NCBI GenBank assembly: GCA_035559535.1
Contig: DATMBG010000012.1
Span: 186,001-250,000 of the forward strand
From: Candidatus Limnocylindrales bacterium
GTDB taxonomy: Bacteria; Moduliflexota; Moduliflexia; Moduliflexales; JAUQPW01
DNA length: 64,000 nucleotides
Direction: 5' to 3'
Shown: positions 162-34,094 of the stretch, one piece after another
Numbering within the stretch: position 1 is the stretch's first letter
How the letters are laid out: each line of letters starts with the position of its first letter
Translations under genes and position numbers: made by a program
Notes under the pieces: generated by a model
What the model was told of the DNA's origin: nothing
The model's database searches: none
What the model saw: only the letters and a program-made list of their open reading frames with translations

Positions 162-1031
162 ATGAAAGGCTTAAAACCCCGTAAACTTTCTTCAGAAGCA
201 CCTACAGATAAAATGTTAAAACGTTATCTTCAAGAAATTGGGAATATCCCTTTAACAACCCGAGAGGAGGAAAAAAAACTCGCCGAGGAAATCAAAAAAG
301 GTAATCAGCAAGCCCTCAACCGTTTGGTTGAAGGTAATCTCCGATTCGTTGTCAAAGTAGCCCAGGACTATATGGGATATGGACTGTCTTTCGCAGACTT
401 AATTACCGAGGGAAATTTAGGTTTAATTGAAGCAGCTAAACGTTTTGATCCTTCCCGAGGAGTTAAGTTTGTTTCCTATGGAGTTTGGTGGATTCGGCAG
501 TCCATTTTGCGGGGCTTGTCTGAGCAAAGCCGGACGATCCGGTTACCTATCAAGCAGGGAGATCTCCTTGCTAAATTGAATCGGATTTATCATGAATATA
601 TCCAGGAGAAAGGAGGTCAGGAACCTTCCCTAGAAGATCTGGCGGATCGGTTGGGAATGAAAGAAGAACAACTCCGACAAATCTTGGAAGTTGCCAGAGA
701 ACCTTTATCCCTTGATGCTCCCATGATGGAGGATGATAATGCCACGCTCTTGAATATCATCAGCAGCAAGAATAACCTGGGACCTGAAGAAACTTTAGTC
801 AATCTTACCTTAATTGAGGAGCTTGACAAACTCCTGAATGAGATGAATCCCCGGGAAGCCCTGATTCTAAGATTAAGATACGGAATCGGGGAAGAGGGTC
901 CTATGACATTGGAACAGATAGGGAAAAGGTTAAATCTGAGTCGGGAACGAATCCGCCAGATAGAGCAGCAAGCCAAAGCAAAGCTAAAAAAACGTGCCTG
1001 CGCTAAGAGCCTGGGAGATTACTTAAACTAA
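162..1031 (+). CDS. RNA polymerase sigma70 factor, RpoD/RpoS family, lacking region 1.1 (group 2-like)
   Basis: YLQEIG (region 1.2), NLRFVVKVA, DLITEGNLGLIEAAKRFD, WWIRQSI (2.4), TLEQIG..LSRERIRQIE (4.2). Confidence 0.93.
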   Translation: MKGLKPRKLSSEAPTDKMLKRYLQEIGNIPLTTREEEKKLAEEIKKGNQQALNRLVEGNLRFVVKVAQDYMGYGLSFADLITEGNLGLIEAAKRFDPSRGVKFVSYGVWWIRQSILRGLSEQSRTIRLPIKQGDLLAKLNRIYHEYIQEKGGQEPSLEDLADRLGMKEEQLRQILEVAREPLSLDAPMMEDDNATLLNIISSKNNLGPEETLVNLTLIEELDKLLNEMNPREALILRLRYGIGEEGPMTLEQIGKRLNLSRERIRQIEQQAKAKLKKRACAKSLGDYLN

Positions 1032-3345: not shown

Positions 3346-6078
3346 GTGAAGAATTTCATGTCGGTCAGGTGGGAAATTGGTGATAAGATCCAGGGTCGCT
3401 GGGAAGTTTATAAAATTTTACAGGGTCCTATAAGTATTGTCTATTTGGTTCATAACCGGGAATTGAATAAACCCTTTGCCGTCAAGACCCTTCGGGAAGA
3501 AATCTTCACCTATAGCCCCGATATTGCTGAATGTTTTGTGCAGGAAGCCCTGGCTTGGGTTTGTCTGAATGTTCATCAGAATGTTACCAAAGCCCATCTT
3601 GTGCAGAAGATAGGAGGAATTCCCTTTCTGTTCCTGGAATATATTGGGGGGGGAGATTTAAGTGGCTGGATCGGTACCCCACGCTTAATGGAAGATTTAC
3701 CGCAAATTCTGAGATTTGCCATGCAGTTCTGTAATGGAATGACCCATGCTTTATCCAACGGTGTGACGGTACATGGAAATATCAAGCCTCAAAATTGCCT
3801 GATCACAGAGGATAATACTTTAAAAATAACAGACTTCGGTCTGGTGAAGGTGCTGGACCGGATCCGTAAAACGAACGGAGAAGTCGAGAAGGTTGGTGAG
3901 GGGGAGAAAAAGCTCAGTAAATTGCTGGGACGGTTGTTTGGAAAGCTTCCAGCAGCCAGTGAAAAAGAAGTAGAAATCTCCCCTTTACAATATCCCCATA
4001 AGGATCTTAGCCGTCTAGGGTTAGAAGTAGAAACTTTGGCCTATCTGGCACCTGAACAGTTCGAGGATATCACCCATCGAGACGTACGTACAGATATCTA
4101 TTCGTTCGGTGTGATGCTCTTCCAGATGATTACTGGACGACCTCCGTTTGAGGGACAGAGCTGGCAGGAGTTTGAACATCTTCACAAAACCCAGTCTCTT
4201 CCGATACTCGGTCAACAACCCCCAGAGTTAAATAAGATTATTGAAACCTGCCTTGCCAAAGACCCTGTTCGTCGATTCTCGGATTTTCGTACGGTATGGG
4301 AATATCTGACAGAGATCTATGAAAGACTGGTAAAAAAACCTGTCACACCCCTACCCCTTGAAAGGGAGTTGGAACAGAGACCTACCCCTAGGGATAAGGA
4401 AGTAGAGCCGACAGTTGAAAAGGAGCAGGATAAAGAGCAACCACCGACGGCTGAGGAAGCAAGAAAAGAGGTGGCAGAACCGGCCACCGTAATAAAAATT
4501 ACCTACTCCTATCAGGGGAAGGAGGAAGAAAAAGTTTTCCATGATGATGTGCTTATTGGTCGTGCCATGGAAGGTTTAGTGCCTGACGTGGATCTTACTT
4601 CTGACCGATTTGTATCCCGTCTCCATGCCAGGATCTGGATGGAAGAAGGAGCCTGGTGGATCGAAGATCTCGATAGTAATAATGGAACCCGGGTTAATGG
4701 CGAGGAAATTAAAGGAAAAGGAAAATGGCCCCTACCCCGAGGTAACCATCTTATCCGGGTTGGTAAAACCAGATTGCAGATTCAGGTTACAGATCTGCCT
4801 GCATTAGGATCCGAAGAAGCCTCAACTTTCCAAGCCCTGGAACCCCCACCTGAAATCATAGAGGTGTTAGATGCAAATAAGCCGATCTTTCCTGTCGAAG
4901 CTGTTATTGAAAATGCTGCGAAGTGGTTAACATTTTTCTACGAATTACCCTTGAGATTTGCGGAAGAAGTACGCCTGAATGTGTTGTTACAGGAAATTGT
5001 GGAGCGGGCCATGGAGATCGTTCCTAGGTCAAAATGCGGGGCCTTGTTATTCCGAGATCCTTCAACGGGACAGCTTCTGAAAGCCTATCTCTCTGCCGGT
5101 GAACCGGTTGTGAATACGGCCATGGCCCAACAAGCTTTAGAGAATCGTAAAGCTTTTATCTGGTGCCGTAAGGTATACTCACAGAAATCCCCTAAAAATC
5201 CTGTGGACATACCCCTTTCCGATGTAATGGAATTACCTGTTGAATCCGGTATGTGTGCTCCCTTATTGTGGAAGGATAGACCCCTGGGGGTCTTATGCGT
5301 AGATAATCATAAAATCGGTCCAGCTTTTGACAGAAATGATCTGCAGTTGCTGGTGATTATTTCCCACTATGCCGCCATGGCCGTGGCAAATTATAAACGT
5401 CAAGATGAGTTGCAGCGTCATGTGGCTTTGGTGAAAAAATTGTTTCCCACCTTTCCACCTGAAGTCCGTGAAAAATTAGTGGAAAAAACCCATCGAGGTC
5501 GGCTACGGCCCGGTGGTAAAAAAACCAGGGCGACCCTTCTTTACTCGCGCATGTGTGAATTTGCGAGTTTAAGTGCTTCCATGAATGCAAAAGAGGTTCT
5601 GGACTTGCTCAACTATTACCTCACTACATTGGTTAAAATTATCTTCAAATACGATGGCACGATTAGCCGGTGCGTAGACGGTACGATTCTGGCCGTATTC
5701 GGTAGTCCTGAGCCAGATCCCCAACAACAGCAAAAAGCTCTACAGGCAGCGATAGAAATTCAAGCAATCCTGACCAAACTCAATGCCATACGGACCTTGA
5801 GAGGACAGATCAGTTGTAATGTCGGTATTGGAATTCATTTTGGGGAAATAGTGTGTGGTTTCGTGGGCTCGGAGAGCTGGATGGAATTTATCGTTGTTGG
5901 TCCCGCGATCAACCGGGTCTTGTATTACGGCGAAGGAGCCCAGGCCGGTGAGGTAGTGATTAGCCCGGAGATGTATGAACAAATCCAGGGAAAAACCCAG
6001 GCCGAAGCGATAACCCTTTCAACTCCCAAGGGAGAAAAACTTATCGCCTATCGTATTAAAGACCAAAGAATAGGTTGA
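3346..6078 (+). CDS. Ser/Thr kinase-like + FHA + GAF + class III nucleotide cyclase-like fusion protein (both catalytic domains degenerate)
   Basis: AVK, HGNIKPQN, KITDFG, APEQF, DIYSFG; FHA IGR..VSRLHA..DLDSNNGTRVNG; GAF MCAPL..LGVLCVDN..FDRNDL; cyclase GIGIHFGEIVCGFVGS; SD AGGAGAGG before GTG. Confidence 0.85.
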   Translation: MKNFMSVRWEIGDKIQGRWEVYKILQGPISIVYLVHNRELNKPFAVKTLREEIFTYSPDIAECFVQEALAWVCLNVHQNVTKAHLVQKIGGIPFLFLEYIGGGDLSGWIGTPRLMEDLPQILRFAMQFCNGMTHALSNGVTVHGNIKPQNCLITEDNTLKITDFGLVKVLDRIRKTNGEVEKVGEGEKKLSKLLGRLFGKLPAASEKEVEISPLQYPHKDLSRLGLEVETLAYLAPEQFEDITHRDVRTDIYSFGVMLFQMITGRPPFEGQSWQEFEHLHKTQSLPILGQQPPELNKIIETCLAKDPVRRFSDFRTVWEYLTEIYERLVKKPVTPLPLERELEQRPTPRDKEVEPTVEKEQDKEQPPTAEEARKEVAEPATVIKITYSYQGKEEEKVFHDDVLIGRAMEGLVPDVDLTSDRFVSRLHARIWMEEGAWWIEDLDSNNGTRVNGEEIKGKGKWPLPRGNHLIRVGKTRLQIQVTDLPALGSEEASTFQALEPPPEIIEVLDANKPIFPVEAVIENAAKWLTFFYELPLRFAEEVRLNVLLQEIVERAMEIVPRSKCGALLFRDPSTGQLLKAYLSAGEPVVNTAMAQQALENRKAFIWCRKVYSQKSPKNPVDIPLSDVMELPVESGMCAPLLWKDRPLGVLCVDNHKIGPAFDRNDLQLLVIISHYAAMAVANYKRQDELQRHVALVKKLFPTFPPEVREKLVEKTHRGRLRPGGKKTRATLLYSRMCEFASLSASMNAKEVLDLLNYYLTTLVKIIFKYDGTISRCVDGTILAVFGSPEPDPQQQQKALQAAIEIQAILTKLNAIRTLRGQISCNVGIGIHFGEIVCGFVGSESWMEFIVVGPAINRVLYYGEGAQAGEVVISPEMYEQIQGKTQAEAITLSTPKGEKLIAYRIKDQRIG

Positions 6079-6283
6079 GTCTTACTTTTTAATTTTCCCT
6101 CCCTTCCTCCCTCCCTCGTATTCTTAGTTCTTACTTTTTTCTTGACAATAAGTGTTGAATCCATTATGAGTTATTAATCACTTATTTTAGTTTTTAATTG
6201 CCTTTTCTTACTTGAAGATCGCCATGAATTTTGGCTTTTGAGAGAGTCATTTCACTCCATGATGGGGTGTTGGGAGAAAGACC

Positions 6284-8224
6284 ATGAATGACAAGAAAAA
6301 TGAAAAACCAAAGGAAAATGAAGATTCAGAATCTATGGAATTTGAGATTTCAGACGAAGATTACCTTAAAGATCTAGATATTTTAAATACTCTGGAAAAA
6401 GATCAAGAAGAGAACCCGGATAAAGATTTAGATATTTTAAATGCCCTTGAAAAAGATCGGGAAGAGACGAAGGTTTTGGATGAGATGATGACGATGACAG
6501 ATGAAGAAATCATGAAGATGGCGGATATCGACCTGGATCTGGATCAGGAAGACAGTGAAGTCCAAAAGATTTTAGAAAATCTGGATAAGGAAAGTTTTAT
6601 GACCAGCCTGGAGGAGATAGAAAAAGCCGGGGAGACCTTAAGTTTTGTGCAAGATAAAGCTGAAAATATCGGTGAAGAATTTCCTTCAATCTCTGAGGAG
6701 TTAGATAGCGAACAGGTAGTTCCTTTGGTGAAGGAGGCAGGCTCTTTATCCAAGGATTTAACCGAACCTCCAGAGGGAGGGATGGAAGATAATTCTCAAC
6801 TGGATGAGGCAACCCGACTGGTAGAAAAGGAACTCGCCCGCGGCATGGAGGAAAGTTCTTTAGAGGCCGAAAGTGAGTTAGAGGGAGCCGTTACCATGAT
6901 GGCAAAGGATTTCGTCCTCCCGTTGGGTGAAGGTTCTTTAGAAGAAAAAGACGCATTACCATCGGATGAGGCAGATATATTGATGGAAAAGGAACTCCCC
7001 CATGACCTGGAAGAGGGTTCTGGGGGAAGGGTTATCCAACCGGAAGAGGATCTGTTGGTGGAAGAGGAACTTCCTCAGGAGATGGCCGAGAGCGCTCTGG
7101 GAGGTCATTCTTCCCTGGAGGAAGTGGATATACTGGCAGAAAAGGAATTAACCCAAGAGCTGGAGGAGAGTTCTCTCTTGAAAGAAGGACTGTCCGGAGA
7201 AGAATGGGCGGAAACTGGAGATATCTTATTGGAGTCTCCTCCCCAAGAAGAATCTCAACAAGCTGGGCGTGTCATCGATTTGGATAGGATAGCTGAAGAG
7301 GAAAAAGTCGAAGTGCCTGGAGTTGGATTCTTAGAAACCCAAATAATAACCCAGGATAAGCAACCGGAAACTGTAGAGGTATCTCCTGTCGGGTCTGAGA
7401 AGGAAAGGTTAGAGAAATCCAGGGGCCCGGAGACTTCTGAACCAGCCCCTATGGATATATCACCTCGAACATCGGATGTAGACTTGAGATTAAGTGATGT
7501 ACAGATGGCTAAGTTTAAAGACCTGATTCGGAATGCAGAAACCCTTCAAGGGTATATCCAAAAGCTGGAAGAGATCCGGGATCAAGTTAAAGAAAAAGTC
7601 TATCACAAACTCCTCACCGAGTACCAGACCCGCCGGGCTAACATTTTTAAAGACCCAGAATTTATCCAAATGCAGCAGTCTGCCAAGGAAGATCTGGACG
7701 ACTCCAAGGCGAAAAAAGAAGAGTTTGATTTGAAACTGGAAGAGCTCAAGGACGACCTGGAGGAGATTAAAGTCCGACATATGGTGGGAGAATACAGTGA
7801 TGAGGTTCTGCTGGAAAAGGAAGAAGCTAAGAAAAATGAGATTAAGTCCTGGAGTGATCGGATTGCTAAAATTGAATCAACCATTGCCTTCTATCTGGAT
7901 CTCTTAAAGGCTGAAGGACTTAAAGGAATCTCGCTTCTGGAAGAAATGTCCCGGTATACGGAGCAAAAAGAGCCTGAACAGACGGAGAAACAAGGTATCT
8001 CGGCGGGAGTTAGCTCAGATGGATCTTATGAAGGAGAAGGTGACGAGGTGTGGGTCGATATCAGTTCCCATATACCTTCCTTAGAGGATCTATCTTCTGA
8101 GGAGGAAATGCCCGAAGAAATCGATCTCTCTGCTGTGGCTATGGTGAACTGCGATCGCTGTGGAAAGGCTACTCCTGCTAAGGAGAAATTTTGCCTTAAG
8201 TGTGGGGCTAAGCTTAAACGCTAG
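6284..8224 (+). CDS. highly acidic repeat protein with C-terminal coiled coil (CdvA-like) and zinc ribbon
   Basis: Glu/Asp-rich low-complexity N-terminal ~400 aa; heptad region ending LEEIKVRHMVGEYSDE; C-terminal CDRCG..FCLKCG; SD GGGAG. Confidence 0.7.
   Translation: MNDKKNEKPKENEDSESMEFEISDEDYLKDLDILNTLEKDQEENPDKDLDILNALEKDREETKVLDEMMTMTDEEIMKMADIDLDLDQEDSEVQKILENLDKESFMTSLEEIEKAGETLSFVQDKAENIGEEFPSISEELDSEQVVPLVKEAGSLSKDLTEPPEGGMEDNSQLDEATRLVEKELARGMEESSLEAESELEGAVTMMAKDFVLPLGEGSLEEKDALPSDEADILMEKELPHDLEEGSGGRVIQPEEDLLVEEELPQEMAESALGGHSSLEEVDILAEKELTQELEESSLLKEGLSGEEWAETGDILLESPPQEESQQAGRVIDLDRIAEEEKVEVPGVGFLETQIITQDKQPETVEVSPVGSEKERLEKSRGPETSEPAPMDISPRTSDVDLRLSDVQMAKFKDLIRNAETLQGYIQKLEEIRDQVKEKVYHKLLTEYQTRRANIFKDPEFIQMQQSAKEDLDDSKAKKEEFDLKLEELKDDLEEIKVRHMVGEYSDEVLLEKEEAKKNEIKSWSDRIAKIESTIAFYLDLLKAEGLKGISLLEEMSRYTEQKEPEQTEKQGISAGVSSDGSYEGEGDEVWVDISSHIPSLEDLSSEEEMPEEIDLSAVAMVNCDRCGKATPAKEKFCLKCGAKLKR
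6368..6466 (+). repeat. 54-bp tandem duplication inside the acidic protein gene (KDLDILNxLEKDxEE x2)
   Basis: aaagatctagatattttaaatactctggaaaaagatcaagaagag at 6368 and aaagatttagatattttaaatgcccttgaaaaagatcgggaagag at 6422. Confidence 0.85.
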
Positions 8225-8327
8225 CTAAAACAGTTTAAGAGAGAAAAGAATAGAAGTAAAATGAGAAGGTGGAATCCTGGAGATCAGAGGAAAGAAAATT
8301 TCCTGACTCCGGGCTCCTGGTTTAAAA

Positions 8328-10346
8328 ATGGCAATTTTTAATTATGCGAACAGGGAAATAACCGCCAAAATCGTTTATTATGGACCTGCGGTATGTGGGA
8401 AGACCACTTCCCTTCAGGTTATTCATCAAAAGATAGCTCCAAACCAACGAGGAAAGCTCCTGTCTTTGGCAACTGAAACCGATCGAACCATTTTTTTTGA
8501 TCTCCTTCCTCTTAAGTTGGGAGAAATAAAGGGATTCAAGCTTAAATTTCAATTATATACGGTTCCTGGACAAGTTAAATATAATAATACGAGGAAGTTA
8601 GTCCTCCAAGGGGCCGATGCCATTGTTTTTGTTGCAGATTCTCAAAGAGCCCGTCGTCAAGCTAATATAGAAAGTTTTAAAAATCTTCAGGAGAACCTTT
8701 TAGAGCAGGGACAACGTTTAGAAGATTTACCTTTAGTGTATGAATATAATAAACGGGACGTAGAATCTCCTTTGTCTGTTGAAGAATTAAATCGAGATCT
8801 AAATTCAAGGGGTCTTCCTTATTTTGAGACGGTGGCCAGTCAAGGACGTGGGGTCATGGAAGCCCTGGAGGCTATCTCCAAAATGACCCTGGAATATTTG
8901 GAGAAGCGTCTCCTGGGAGATCAGAAACCTAAAGTCGCAGAGATACCTAAACCTCAGATGGAGAAGAAAATCGAAGAGCCGGAGGAAACTGTTCCTGTTG
9001 CCTCCCAGGATATTATGGATCTTACCCTGGAGGAGCCTGCGTTAACTTTTTCTGAAGAAGAATTGACCGGACTCGAGCTGGAGTCGGATCTATTGCCTCC
9101 CATGGATCAACCTCAACCTTCCCCATCTTCCTCCTTTGAGGATCTTCTGGCTTCTTCAAAGCCCATTGGATATGGAGATAATGTACAGATCGAGGAAGCA
9201 GAGCTTACCACCCTCCCCCTTGTCAGCGATGAACCTCTGCAATCCCAATTTTTTGATCTGAAGGAAGTTGAAGCGCAGGCATTTCGAGATTTGGAAAACT
9301 TTTTAGGCCCTTTAAAGGATTCTCAAGAGGACGAAACTACCTTTAACCCTCCCCAAACTTCTGAAGCGTCCACAGATTCTTTACCCTTAGAGGATAGCTC
9401 GTTGGATTTTAAGTTAGAGCCGGAGTATGAAGAGTCTGGAGAAAAACTTCAAGAATCCTCCTTTTTTGGAGAAAATGAAGATCTGCTAGATTTTGGGATT
9501 GAAGAAAAAATGGAAGATGAAGATTTACCGGGAGTTGGTCCTGGATCAGAAGAGAAAGCGGGGGCCAAGGATTTGTTAGAATTTGTCCGGGAACAAGAAG
9601 AAAAATCCGAAATGGAGGATTTATTGGGGTTTGCCCTTGAAGATAAGGAAGAAATGCCGACCCCTCTTTCCTCTGAGGAAGATTTTTTTGCGACCCAGGC
9701 TACTTCCCAGGAAGGGCGTTCGACCCGTCTTGAAGAGTTGATCCCTGAGCAAGAAAAACCTCAAGATAAGGGTCTTACTTCTTCTATGCAACAGACTCTG
9801 GAATCTTCTAGACAAGGATTAACAGAAGACTCTTCTATATCCAGGATTCCAAATCTTGCGGAGTCTCCCCGGGTGTTAGAAGAAATTATACCGGCTTCTT
9901 TTTCAGAGACCCCTCCCATAGAAGAGAATCCTTATATCAACCTGCTGAAATTTTCCAAATCTCTCTATCAAAAGGGACAAGAATATCTTTCCCGAGAAAC
10001 CGATTTAAATCTCAGCTTGGCTTTGTTTTCTTACTATCTTGCTGTAGAAACTGCTTTGAAGGCCGTTGCACTCAAATTTGAAACTTGCAATCCCGAAATT
10101 GCCTCCATGCCGCTTCTTTTAGATAGCATCGAGGAAGAAACCGGTAAATCCCTGATGGGTCGTAAATTTATCGAGGAAAGGGTCATTAAAGCAAAAAATG
10201 ATTTGCAACTCAAGTTGCTTTTTCCCGATTTAGAGACCTGCCAACTTATTGCTCAAACCGCCGGGCGATTTTTGGAAGCCCTGGCCAGGGACTTTCTGGA
10301 CACCGACTTCTCTCAGCTTCCCCCGATATCCTATAAGCCCTCATAA
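8328..10346 (+). CDS. MglA-family small GTPase fused to an acidic linker and a C-terminal HEPN-like helical domain
   Basis: KIVYYGPAVCGKTT, TETDRTIFFD, LYTVPGQ, NKRD; ~330-aa acidic linker; C-terminal ALFSYYLAVETALKA..KNDLQ..AGRFL. Confidence 0.85.
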   Translation: MAIFNYANREITAKIVYYGPAVCGKTTSLQVIHQKIAPNQRGKLLSLATETDRTIFFDLLPLKLGEIKGFKLKFQLYTVPGQVKYNNTRKLVLQGADAIVFVADSQRARRQANIESFKNLQENLLEQGQRLEDLPLVYEYNKRDVESPLSVEELNRDLNSRGLPYFETVASQGRGVMEALEAISKMTLEYLEKRLLGDQKPKVAEIPKPQMEKKIEEPEETVPVASQDIMDLTLEEPALTFSEEELTGLELESDLLPPMDQPQPSPSSSFEDLLASSKPIGYGDNVQIEEAELTTLPLVSDEPLQSQFFDLKEVEAQAFRDLENFLGPLKDSQEDETTFNPPQTSEASTDSLPLEDSSLDFKLEPEYEESGEKLQESSFFGENEDLLDFGIEEKMEDEDLPGVGPGSEEKAGAKDLLEFVREQEEKSEMEDLLGFALEDKEEMPTPLSSEEDFFATQATSQEGRSTRLEELIPEQEKPQDKGLTSSMQQTLESSRQGLTEDSSISRIPNLAESPRVLEEIIPASFSETPPIEENPYINLLKFSKSLYQKGQEYLSRETDLNLSLALFSYYLAVETALKAVALKFETCNPEIASMPLLLDSIEEETGKSLMGRKFIEERVIKAKNDLQLKLLFPDLETCQLIAQTAGRFLEALARDFLDTDFSQLPPISYKPS

Positions 10347-10385: not shown

Positions 10386-10416
10386 CTTGACAAGAATAGA
10401 CTCAAGGTGGTATGTT
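10386..10416 (+). promoter_or_regulatory. HAIR (HspR operator) overlapping the sigma70 promoter of dnaJ
   Basis: CTTGACA-N7-ACTCAAG at 10386-10406 (HAIR consensus CTTGAGT-N7-ACTCAAG); contains -35 TTGACA; extended -10 TGgTATGTT at 10408-10416; hspR lies downstream. Confidence 0.8.
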
Positions 10417-12289: not shown

Positions 12290-13174
12290 ATGGTAAAGAA
12301 AGTAAGGGTGATTATGGATTTCGAGGGTTCTCATAAATATGTCTCTCATGATACCTTGAGTACCTATCTGAGGGAAATCAGTAAGTTTTCCATTACCACA
12401 CGAGAGGAAGAAGAACAATTAGCCATGCGGATTCAACAAGGAGATCAGGAAGCGCTCAAGCGGTTAGTGGAGGGAAACTTAAAGTTTGTCGTTAAAGTTG
12501 CCCAGGGATATCAGGGGTGTGGTTTATCTTTACCCGATCTCATCAATGAAGGAAATATCGGCCTGATTGAAGCTGCCAAAAGATTCGATCCTTCCAAAGG
12601 AGTTAAATTCATTTCCTACGCTGTTTGGTGGATTCGTCAAGCGATTATGCAAGCTTTAGCCGAACAGTCGGGTGCTGTGAGGCTACCCCTTAAGCAGGCG
12701 GGCCTTTTATACAAGATCAGTCAGCTCTATAACGAAATGATTCAAGAAAATAACGGTCGAGAACCTACGCCGGAGGAGCTTTCTGAAAAGTTAGATGTAC
12801 CGGTTAAGGATGTAGAGAATATTATGAGAATTTCCAGAAATTATCTATCTCTGGATGCACCCCTCTCCGATGGAGAGGACAGTACCACCTTCATCGATTT
12901 TATGGAAGCCAAACAGTATCCGGCAGCCGATGAAATTTTGTTAAATCAATCTTTCCAGGACCAATTTGAAGAACTTCTGAAGGGTCTGGATCCCCGGGAA
13001 GAGAAGATTTTGCGCCTGCGTTATGGGTTAGATGGTCAAAAACCAATGACCTTAGAGGAAGTTGGAAAGTTGATGAATTTAAGTCGGGAGAGGGTCCGGC
13101 AAATTGAAAGCCGCACGAAACATCGCCTCAGACATAGAGCTCTGGCCAAACGCCTTCGGGACTACCTGAATTAG
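12290..13174 (+). CDS. RNA polymerase sigma70 factor paralog 2, lacking region 1.1
   Basis: YLREIS, NLKFVVKVA, DLINEGNIGLIEAAKRFD, WWIRQAI, LSRERVRQIE; start may be ATG 12314. Confidence 0.93.
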   Translation: MVKKVRVIMDFEGSHKYVSHDTLSTYLREISKFSITTREEEEQLAMRIQQGDQEALKRLVEGNLKFVVKVAQGYQGCGLSLPDLINEGNIGLIEAAKRFDPSKGVKFISYAVWWIRQAIMQALAEQSGAVRLPLKQAGLLYKISQLYNEMIQENNGREPTPEELSEKLDVPVKDVENIMRISRNYLSLDAPLSDGEDSTTFIDFMEAKQYPAADEILLNQSFQDQFEELLKGLDPREEKILRLRYGLDGQKPMTLEEVGKLMNLSRERVRQIESRTKHRLRHRALAKRLRDYLN

Positions 13175-33353: not shown

Positions 33354-34094
33354 ATGGCACAGTTTAATTATAGCACAAAGGAAATTATAGCAAAACTTGT
33401 TTACTATGGACCTTCCCTGGGTGGTAAAACGACGAATTTGCAAGTCCTTCATAAAATCCTGGATCCCACCAGTCGCGGTAATTTATTCTCCCTGGAAACA
33501 GAGGCAGATCGAACCTTATTTTTTGATTTACTTCCCATTAATTTGGGAATAAGGAAGGGAATAGAACTTCGTTTGAAGGTTTATACGGTTCCAGGTCAGG
33601 TAAAATATAACTCTACACGACGTATGGTTTTAACGGGAGCCGATGGGATTGTATTTGTTGCAGACTCTGGGGTAAGCCGCTATAACGATAACATAGAAAG
33701 CTTTCAGAATTTGATCGAGAACCTGGCCGTAAATTCAATCAATATCCATGAAATTCCCCTGGTTTTACAATATAATAAACGAGATTTACCGGATATTTTA
33801 TCGGTTGAAACCTTAGAGAAGAAACTCAATTTTAGAAATGTACCTTCCTTTGAATCGGTAGCCATCGAAGGAAAAGGAGTTCTGGAGAGTTTCATCGGAA
33901 TCCTTAAGGGTATAATGATCCATTTTGCAGAAAAGTATCACCTTGCTAAAGGTGAAGCTGGGATTGCTAGACTCGTTGAACAGGTGGAAAAGAATCTAAT
34001 GGAACATGTGCAGAAAGGGCAAAAAATCCAAAACTCTGTTATCCAACCTCAAGGATCACAGGTTCATCCGGAACCTAAGGAGCCAAAATTGTAG
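33354..34094 (+). CDS. MglA-family small GTPase (second paralog)
   Basis: KLVYYGPSLGGKTT, TEADRTLFFD, YTVPGQ, NKRD. Confidence 0.9.
   Translation: MAQFNYSTKEIIAKLVYYGPSLGGKTTNLQVLHKILDPTSRGNLFSLETEADRTLFFDLLPINLGIRKGIELRLKVYTVPGQVKYNSTRRMVLTGADGIVFVADSGVSRYNDNIESFQNLIENLAVNSINIHEIPLVLQYNKRDLPDILSVETLEKKLNFRNVPSFESVAIEGKGVLESFIGILKGIMIHFAEKYHLAKGEAGIARLVEQVEKNLMEHVQKGQKIQNSVIQPQGSQVHPEPKEPKL

What the first reader, a model, noticed from the sequence alone, without database searches (positions are those of the whole stretch)
3346..10346. Candidate undescribed polarity/signalling module: pseudo-enzyme sensor, acidic CdvA-like scaffold and MglA-HEPN fusion
Seen: three consecutive co-oriented genes. 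The first is a kinase-FHA-GAF-cyclase fusion with broken catalytic motifs. The second is a very acidic repeat protein with a coiled coil and Zn ribbon. The third, 103 bp later, is an MglA GTPase with a similarly acidic linker and a HEPN-like tail. No MglB/roadblock gene is adjacent. Known: MglA GTPases set cell polarity with MglB and RomR/RomX, and acidic disordered proteins (PopZ, FimV/HubP) act as polar hubs. Inference: an MglB-independent GTPase switch built from scaffolds and pseudoenzymes, with the GTPase as the only clearly intact catalyst. This is my best candidate for a new system here.
Basis: partly seen in the sequence, partly recalled or inferred. Interest (0 to 1): 0.75.

Follow-up and report, generated by a model that had tools for sequence, protein, structure and literature searches.

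The report
Tailed MglA switch with CdvA-like partner
In the gliding-filament bacteria known as KSB3, a Ras-like polarity switch (MglA) with a long acidic tail is encoded directly behind an acidic scaffold protein shaped like the archaeal division protein CdvA; this two-gene unit looks undescribed and untested, and the broken kinase gene beside it is probably a bystander.

Summary
All three genes exist as described. Gene 1 is a pseudokinase-FHA-GAF-pseudocyclase. Gene 2 is an acidic disordered protein with a CdvA-shaped coiled coil and a Zn ribbon. Gene 3 is an intact Group-1 MglA joined by an acidic linker to a HEPN fold without the RNase motif.

The module is two genes, not three. Genes 2 and 3 are adjacent in 9 of 9 genomes of the order (KSB3/Moduliflexota), with a conserved promoter-like box before gene 2 in the window and 10 of 10 other loci. 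Gene 1 is adjacent in only 2 of 9, both one genus.

'MglB-independent' is not shown: a canonical mglBA operon lies elsewhere in 8 of 9 genomes. Gene 3 keeps the main MglB-contact strand but has Glu at Lys181.

Best reading: an orphan, tethered MglA plus an oligomeric scaffold forming a localisation switch, probably for type IV pilus polarity. Binding and function are inferred only.

This scan noted tailed orphan MglAs in other lineages, but not this pair. No paper describing it was found. New variant of a known kind.

The parts
3346..6078 (+). Gene 1: pseudokinase (about res 5-330), intact FHA (402-468), GAF (544-682), pseudo class-III cyclase (728-883). Probably a lineage-specific neighbour with its own transcription, not a core part.
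   Evidence: motifs; adjacent in 2 of 9 genomes; dN/dS 0.13, FHA 0 non-synonymous vs 12 synonymous changes
6137..6170 (+). Conserved sigma-70-like promoter box before gene 2: TTTTCTTGACA at 6137-6147, candidate -10 TATGAG 17 nt later
   Evidence: window plus 10 of 10 loci, against 13 of 2,977 G000 ORFs and 0 of 10 before gene 3; not listed by the consensus scanner because the -10 lacks its last T
6284..7468 (+). Gene 2 residues 1-395: very acidic disordered region with short conserved motifs and family-specific repeats
7469..7918 (+). Gene 2 residues 396-545: CdvA-like / steadiness-box-like helical coiled-coil domain
   Evidence: pLDDT >90; top hit CdvA filament 9s9g, Z 10.9, rmsd 4.0, 129 aligned; dN/dS 0.07
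8141..8224 (+). Gene 2 C-terminal C4 zinc ribbon and stop codon
   Evidence: (four Cys at least 90% conserved in 35 orthologs)
8328..8912 (+). Gene 3 residues 1-195: Group-1 MglA G domain, catalytic Arg53 and Gln82 intact; Ala at position 21, Glu at 181
   Evidence: dN/dS 0.01
8913..9917 (+). Gene 3 residues 196-530: acidic linker with conserved short motifs (DLT..FS.EEL, KPIGY, S.FF.LK..E.QA..L..FL)
9918..10346 (+). Gene 3 residues 531-672: HEPN-fold tail with Ex3K but no Rx4-6H RNase motif
   Evidence: dN/dS 0.11

Best explanation
Genes 2 and 3 form a two-gene operon with its own promoter, kept across the KSB3/Moduliflexota order.

Shown by sequence: gene 3 has a Group-1 MglA domain with all catalytic residues, a 330-residue acidic spacer and a catalytically dead HEPN fold. 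Gene 2 has an acidic disordered arm, a CdvA-shaped coiled coil and a Zn ribbon.

Inferred: gene 2 self-associates through the coiled coil into a cytoplasmic hub. The gene 3 protein is held there, with the HEPN fold serving as a dimerising or docking end. Its G domain is displayed on a long tether and acts as a GTP/GDP switch that marks a pole or cell end for the type IV pilus machinery, in parallel with the canonical MglA/MglB pair. GAP activity is either borrowed from MglB in trans or weak.

Gene 1 is a separately transcribed pseudo-enzyme adaptor that came to lie upstream in one family.
For: Adjacency and order in 9 of 9 genomes despite changed flanks, and in 3 of 3 metagenome loci, one of which repeats a genome locus and one of which is cut inside gene 3. 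Gaps are 16-32 bp in the 7 f2 genomes. The promoter-like box is present in the window and 10 of 10 loci, and gene 2 is divergent from its upstream gene in 6 of 7 f2 genomes. Folded domains are under purifying selection. R53 and Q82 occur in 16 of 16 aligned orthologs, and G3 and G4 are invariant.

Context: pilT and pilM in 9 of 9 genomes; no FliG match in G000, which is 95.8% complete; an SgmX-like TPR protein (E=1.9e-51, below cut-off) and a RomR-like architecture.

Precedents: KSB3 filaments glide by an unknown mechanism (PMC4312070). Orphan MglAs such as SofG and Bdellovibrio MglA act on pili (PMC4316618). CdvA polymerises through its coiled coil (PMC12818579).
Against: No direct evidence of binding, localisation or a motility role. 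Both proteins are strongly negative (net -104 and -63), so their disordered arms should repel each other. The pair is not next to pilus genes in any locus inspected; in f2 the conserved next gene is a peptide-deformylase-like gene (label recalled from the sequence, not from a family search). The CdvA match (Z 10.9) is below the roughly 13 advised for helical bundles, and gene 2 has no PRC barrel, which CdvA needs for filaments. Gliding was reported for the two genomes of that paper; whether family f1 glides is unknown.
Confidence: 0.5

Rival explanations
1. Three-gene module: gene 1 is a pThr-sensing pseudo-enzyme input acting on the scaffold and the GTPase.
For: Gene 1 is under purifying selection and its FHA has no non-synonymous change against G001. 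Two more full-length homologs (84% and 52%) have the same longest-contig lengths as gene 2/3 homologs (41,279 and 38,955 bp), suggesting linkage inside family f1. Many relatives of the gene 2 coiled coil carry FHA domains.
Against: Adjacent in 2 of 9 genomes, with no full-length match in 7 of 7 f2 genomes. A conserved promoter-like box lies between genes 1 and 2. A further f1-type pair (P0008/P0016) has no full-length gene 1 with a matching contig length among the 120 of 383 hits listed. The contig linkage could not be verified.
Confidence: 0.12
2. Septal or division role: the CdvA-like protein templates a ring or cross-wall structure in the multicellular filament, timed by the tethered GTPase.
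For: The top fold hit among 48,161 chains is the CdvA filament, followed by four ESCRT-I core entries in the top six. The CdvA hairpin resembles the steadiness box, and CdvA-like proteins fused to Glu-rich disordered sequence occur in Bathyarchaea (PMC10936438).
Against: The genome has FtsZ-family genes. There is no PRC barrel and no ESCRT-III or Vps4 gene is evident in the loci; a PspA gene lies on another contig. MglA's known roles are in motility polarity.
Confidence: 0.15
3. The HEPN tail binds RNA non-catalytically, making gene 3 a GTP-gated regulator of translation or stress rather than of polarity.
For: Motif-less HEPN domains are proposed to bind RNA (PMC3710099). K623 is invariant at the position of the motif Arg, and 8 of 16 orthologs have a His near the HEPN-T alternative site. 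The neighbours are dnaJ and a MerR-type gene (f1) or a deformylase-like gene (f2).
Against: No His at either site in this genome. The protein is strongly acidic. Slow vertical evolution and single copy per genome do not fit a conflict system.
Confidence: 0.08
4. The two genes are only co-transcribed, and each works with other partners (for example, gene 3 as an ordinary MglB-regulated paralog).
For: The beta2 MglB-contact residues I55, F56, F57, L59 plus L64, I67 and K185 occur in 16 of 16 orthologs (PMC3199381, PMC6785124). Relatives of the gene 2 coiled coil were not beside mglA or mglB in 14 of 14 loci from other lineages.
Against: Order and tight spacing are kept across two families while both flanks change. 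E181 replaces the MglB-helix-contacting Lys in 16 of 16 orthologs, whereas the canonical MglA keeps it.
Confidence: 0.15

Closest known systems
Group-1 MglA of Myxococcus xanthus / Thermus thermophilus (PDB 5ymx, 6izw, 3t12) with GAP MglB
   Same: G domain aligns over 1-193 (E=2e-69); intrinsic Arg53, TVPGQ with Gln82, NKRD, and the beta2 hydrophobic strand are all kept.
   Different: 672 aa instead of about 195; acidic linker and HEPN tail; no mglB nearby; Glu181 for Lys181; Ala21 for Gly21 in 6 of 16 orthologs, all of f1 type.
Orphan MglA proteins SofG (M. xanthus) and Bdellovibrio MglA
   Same: No coupled mglB; both are tied to type IV pili (PMC4316618).
   Different: They are 197-239 aa with no HEPN tail. 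SofG is not stimulated by MglB. No CdvA-like partner is mentioned for them in the passages read.
CdvA of Sulfolobales (PDB 9s9g) and the ESCRT-I steadiness box
   Same: Helical coiled-coil fold: best structural match, Z 10.9, rmsd 4.0, 129 residues. Family relatives hit PF18822, one above cut-off.
   Different: No PRC barrel, no direct Pfam hit, 11% identity; a 395-residue acidic arm and a C-terminal Zn ribbon; bacterial; no cdvBC neighbours seen.
Bacterial CdvA-like coiled coil + FHA or Zn-ribbon proteins (unnamed; paralog at G000 C32:116796-117845)
   Same: Same coiled coil (E 1e-13 to 1e-5), followed by an acidic linker and a Zn ribbon or FHA.
   Different: They lack the long N-terminal acidic arm and were not beside mglA in 14 of 14 loci checked.
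GltJ (AgmX) of M. xanthus
   Same: Precedent for a Zn ribbon plus flexible linker that binds MglA-GTP and recruits MglB from elsewhere (PMC11135422).
   Different: GltJ is a membrane protein with an N-terminal ZnR-GYF module of different Cys spacing; no homology to gene 2 was tested or seen.
HEPN superfamily, motif-less members
   Same: Helical fold (Atlas TM 0.73) and the Ex3K motif.
   Different: No Rx4-6H motif; fused to MglA, a fusion not seen in the passages read.
PopZ, FimV/HubP and RomR acidic polar hubs (recalled)
   Same: Long acidic disordered region plus a helical assembly domain.
   Different: Analogy only. No family hit, and no obvious membrane or peptidoglycan anchor on inspection of the sequence.

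Membership tests
Group-1 MglA | G1 P-loop, Arg53 finger next to the G2 Thr, G3 TVPGQ, G4 NKxD | tested here: met
   (R53 and Q82 in 16 of 16)
Group-1 MglA | Single G domain of 150-240 aa (size rule of PMC4316618) | tested here: not met
   672 aa; orthologs 650-803 aa
MglA/MglB module | mglB within four genes | tested here: not met
   roadblock hits only on other contigs or beside the canonical mglA
MglA/MglB module | GTP hydrolysis stimulated by MglB | not testable with these tools
   beta2 contact residues kept, K181 replaced by Glu; needs an assay
HEPN domain | HEPN helical fold and Ex3[KR] motif | tested here: met
   Atlas TM 0.73 over 127 aa; Pfam E=0.012; one ortholog 22.6 bits against cut-off 22; E574 and K578 in 16 of 16. 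My own model was low-confidence and its fold searches were uninformative.
HEPN RNase | Rx4-6H catalytic motif | tested here: not met
   KNDLQLK at the motif position; no His at 627-631 in 16 of 16
CdvA (PF18822) | Helical coiled-coil domain of CdvA fold | tested here: inconclusive
   top hit of 48,161 chains, Z 10.9, under the helical caution level of about 13; Foldseek E=0.22; 6 of 51 distant relatives scanned show PF18822 at E<=0.01, one above cut-off
CdvA (PF18822) | Direct profile match above cut-off | tested here: not met
CdvA (PF18822) | N-terminal PRC barrel | tested here: not met
   no strand outside the Zn ribbon in the model; no Pfam hit
CdvA (PF18822) | Filament formation and ESCRT-III recruitment | not testable with these tools
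   needs purified protein
Active Hanks-type Ser/Thr kinase (gene 1) | Gly-rich loop and catalytic-loop Asp (HRD) | tested here: not met
   ILQGPISIV and HGN; the VAIK Lys and DFG are kept; the 84% homolog keeps the Asp (HGD) and the 52% homolog has HGR
Active class III nucleotide cyclase (gene 1) | Two metal-binding Asp and the NxxxR Arg | tested here: not met
   the Arg is lost in 4 of 4 full-length proteins, while the 52% homolog keeps the first Asp
FHA domain (gene 1) | GR, SxxH and NGT phosphothreonine-binding motifs (motifs recalled) | tested here: met
PopZ/FimV-type polar hub | Polar localisation and client recruitment | not testable with these tools
   only acidity and disorder are shown

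The most novel reading that the evidence does not exclude
Gene 2 is a true bacterial member of the CdvA/ESCRT-I steadiness-box family that polymerises or condenses into a landmark at filament ends or cross-walls. The tethered, HEPN-dimerised MglA is its dedicated GTP switch, working without MglB (Glu181, and Ala21 in this family). Together they coordinate pilus polarity along the multicellular KSB3 filament. This would give a first function for bacterial CdvA-like proteins and a handle on the unexplained gliding of these filaments.
Probability: 0.15. Interest if true: 0.8.

Novelty: new variant of a known kind. Interest (0 to 1): 0.5.

Why it matters
KSB3 filaments cause sludge bulking and glide toward sugars by an unknown mechanism (PMC4312070). 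This order carries four distinct MglA clades, mostly with one mglB operon, and the pair described here is present in every genome examined. If the pair is a working switch, it would extend the MglA toolkit to a fused, scaffold-anchored form. It would also link an archaeal division fold to bacterial polarity. Both proteins look cytoplasmic and can be tested in vitro or in Myxococcus.

Tried and rejected
- Complex prediction (gene 3 G domain + HEPN + GTP, with gene 2 residues 396-646 as partner): no verdict, score 0.20 against a mark of 0.32. Not used as evidence either way.
- RNA runs: no RNA holder listed, so co-transcription is unchecked.
- My AlphaFold model of the HEPN tail was poor (pLDDT 63, pTM 0.40). 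Foldseek gave no hit at E<=0.001 and the wide search listed only generic hairpins, with no HEPN entry.
- Profile searches of solved structures with the coiled coil and the tail found nothing significant. The kinase search at E<=1e-25 found none. The cyclase search failed on a frame slip and was not repeated.
- Idea that the acidic arms mimic the MglB C-terminal helix: rejected. A profile of 8 MglB tails scored no better on 14 gene 2/3 proteins than on local shuffles (best case 10 of 200 shuffles at or above; 7 of 14 gave no match).
- Idea that gene 1 is a decaying pseudogene: rejected, dN/dS 0.13.
- Idea that the coiled-coil family is generally tied to MglA: rejected, 0 of 14 loci from 13 other genomes.
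- The hhalign of the tail against stand-alone HEPNs was weak (probability 34%, E=4e-4), and the comparison set included some wrong-strand ORFs.
- Same-contig linkage of the two distant gene 1 homologs could not be looked up and stays open.
- A script regex for the HAIR element was mis-specified and returned nothing; that element is read by eye only.
Full report
Observation. The three ORFs lie on + at 3346-6078 (910 aa), 6284-8224 (646 aa) and 8328-10346 (672 aa), with gaps of 205 and 103 bp. The genome (5.6 Mb, 95.8% complete) has 8 relatives in its order. Orthologs of gene 2 were found on records named Ca. Moduliflexus, Ca. Vecturithrix and candidate division KSB3, so the lineage is KSB3/Moduliflexota. 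This genome belongs to a different family (f1) from 7 of the 8 relatives (f2).

Gene 1. Pfam gives kinase, FHA, GAF and class III cyclase. Against close homologs, the kinase lacks the Gly-rich loop and has HGN for HRD, though it keeps the Lys and DFG. The cyclase lacks the first Asp, has DG for GD and lacks the NxxxR Arg. The FHA is intact. The gene is not decaying: dN/dS against G001 is 0.13, and the FHA has 0 non-synonymous and 12 synonymous changes. Only two other full-length clusters (84% and 52%) appear among the 120 of 383 hits listed. The 84% one keeps the kinase Asp and the 52% one keeps the first cyclase Asp, so the losses differ between members. It reads as a phosphothreonine-binding pseudo-enzyme adaptor of family f1.

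Gene 2. Residues 1-400 are 30% D+E, and the protein is the second most negatively charged per residue of 2,986 ORFs of 250 aa or more. Its repeats are real here (0 of 60 shuffles reach them) but not clear in 3 of 3 f2-type orthologs. The model has a confident helical domain at 401-545 and a Zn ribbon at 620-646. A search of 48,161 solved chains ranked the S. islandicus CdvA filament first (Z 10.9, rmsd 4.0, 129 residues), with four ESCRT-I core entries in the top six. This is below the caution level for helical bundles, and Foldseek gave only E=0.22. PF18822 does not hit gene 2. A profile search of 1.84 billion proteins found 34 close relatives at E<=1e-30 and 306 at E<=0.001. The distant ones are mostly coiled coil + FHA or Zn ribbon; 6 of 51 scanned show PF18822, one above cut-off. 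'CdvA-like' is therefore fair for the fold, but membership of CdvA is not met, since there is no PRC barrel.

Gene 3. The G domain matches solved MglA at E=2e-69, with R53 and Q82 in 16 of 16 orthologs and G3 and G4 invariant. Position 21 is Ala in 6 of 16, all of f1 type. Gly21 is the Ras Gly12 equivalent, and G21V loses GAP-stimulated hydrolysis (PMC3199381, passages); the effect of Ala is unknown. The beta2 MglB-contact residues and L64, I67, K185 are invariant, but K181, which contacts the MglB C-terminal helix (PMC6785124, passages), is Glu in 16 of 16. The tail is HEPN-like, keeps Ex3K and lacks Rx4-6H (motif definitions from PMC3710099, passages). My own model of the tail was too poor to confirm the fold. 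Only 9 proteins with this tail were found among 360 candidates of similar length.

Linkage. Genes 2 and 3 are adjacent and in the same order in 9 of 9 genomes and 3 of 3 metagenome loci, one duplicating a genome locus and one cut inside gene 3. Gene 1 is adjacent in 2 of 9 and has no full-length match in the other 7. The box TTTTCTTGACA precedes gene 2 in the window and in 10 of 10 other loci, against 13 of 2,977 ORFs in this genome and 0 of 10 before gene 3. The consensus scanner did not list it. In 6 of 7 f2 genomes gene 2 points away from its upstream neighbour. So the conserved unit is the pair. Outside the order, the coiled-coil family was found in 20 of 292 sampled genomes and was not beside mglA or mglB in 14 of 14 loci checked.

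MglB. This genome has a DUF4388-HAMP-mglB-mglA operon on C22, with an acidic C-terminal helix on MglB. The same operon is in 8 of 9 genomes. G002 (93% complete) keeps the pair but showed no canonical mglBA, which is weak evidence for independence. A tree of 41 G domains (2 divergent rows dropped for lack of a P-loop match) separates canonical, cNMP-fused and roughly 250-aa clades with strong support. The HEPN-tailed rows form an unresolved group, and the tool warned of a long-branch join. MglB independence is thus possible but not shown.

Mechanism. Shown: the domain anatomy, catalytic integrity of the GTPase, the dead HEPN motif, the operon-like linkage. Inferred: gene 2 oligomerises through its coiled coil, as CdvA does (PMC12818579, section 5 and passages), and anchors the tethered GTPase, which marks a pole for pilus activity. 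Context supports pili as the output: pilT and pilM in 9 of 9 genomes, no FliG match here, an SgmX-like TPR protein and a RomR-like architecture. KSB3 filaments glide by an unknown mechanism (PMC4312070, passages). A Zn ribbon that recruits MglB in trans has a precedent in GltJ (PMC11135422, passages). Against this: both proteins are strongly acidic, the pair is not near pilus genes, and nothing here shows binding. I put this reading at 0.5. The rivals are co-transcription only (0.15), a septal role (0.15), the three-gene module (0.12) and HEPN RNA binding (0.08).

Novelty. Orphan MglAs are known (59 of 449), and that survey excluded proteins over 240 aa (PMC4316618, passages). CdvA-like fusions to FHA, Zn ribbons and Glu-rich regions are described in archaea (PMC10936438 and PMC5906684, passages). 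Eight literature searches (listings only unless cited above) and a ParA/HEPN preprint (10.64898/2026.10.19.760177, passages) showed no MglA-HEPN fusion and no bacterial CdvA-MglA pair. The KSB3 genome paper has no occurrence of 'mglA' in its main text; its supplementary Table S8 was not viewed, and most subscription papers are outside the library. Earlier notes of this scan report tailed orphan MglAs in other lineages (unchecked), but none on this pair. Verdict: new variant of a known kind, interest 0.5.

Noticed in passing
G000 C51:109658-110902 (L025:8659-9903) and 7 orthologs: MglA fused to a cyclic-nucleotide-binding domain (Pfam E=8e-22). The arginine finger is replaced by Gln or Glu in 8 of 8, suggesting a cNMP-regulated, hydrolysis-poor MglA. 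A conserved gene of about 100 aa precedes it.
   Followed up: partly
window 33354-34094 (+): A third orphan MglA (246 aa) with Ser at position 21. Orthologs are found across the order, and two extra copies have TVPGE instead of TVPGQ.
   Followed up: partly
window 10386-10406 (+): CTTGACA-N7-ACTCAAG overlapping the -35 box before dnaJ and a MerR-type gene; it resembles the HspR operator HAIR (consensus recalled, read by eye).
   Followed up: no
G000 C32:116796-117845 (L026:8797-9846): Paralog of the gene 2 coiled coil with a C-terminal FHA. Found in G000 and G001, but not listed for f2 genomes.
   Followed up: partly
G000 C43:135494-137281 (L131:9495-11282): The most acidic large protein of the genome, TPR plus acidic region, lying just after a pilM-containing gene cluster; possibly a pilus-pole hub.
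   Followed up: partly
G000 C58:23095-24234 and C58:162881-164572: A RomR-like receiver-acidic linker-helix protein (architecture only) and an SgmX-like TPR protein (NCBIfam E=1.9e-51, below cut-off).
   Followed up: partly
window 162-1031 and 12290-13174: Two short sigma-70 factors (regions 1.2 to 4) within 12 kb, flanking the locus; highly conserved in G001.
   Followed up: no
L017-L023, L058, downstream of the gene 3 ortholog: In family f2 the pair is followed 5-155 bp later by a co-oriented peptide-deformylase-like gene (label recalled from the sequence) in 7 of 7 genomes.
   Followed up: no
G000 C51:228139-237434 (L027): Cluster of a kinase-WD40 protein, an FHA-GAF-cyclase-PP2C protein, an FHA-GAF-cyclase protein and an FHA-kinase protein; gene 1 has the parts of such a cluster fused in one chain.
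   Followed up: no
G000 C7:73698 and C52:4231: Two tubulin/FtsZ-family genes; the second is divergent.
   Followed up: no
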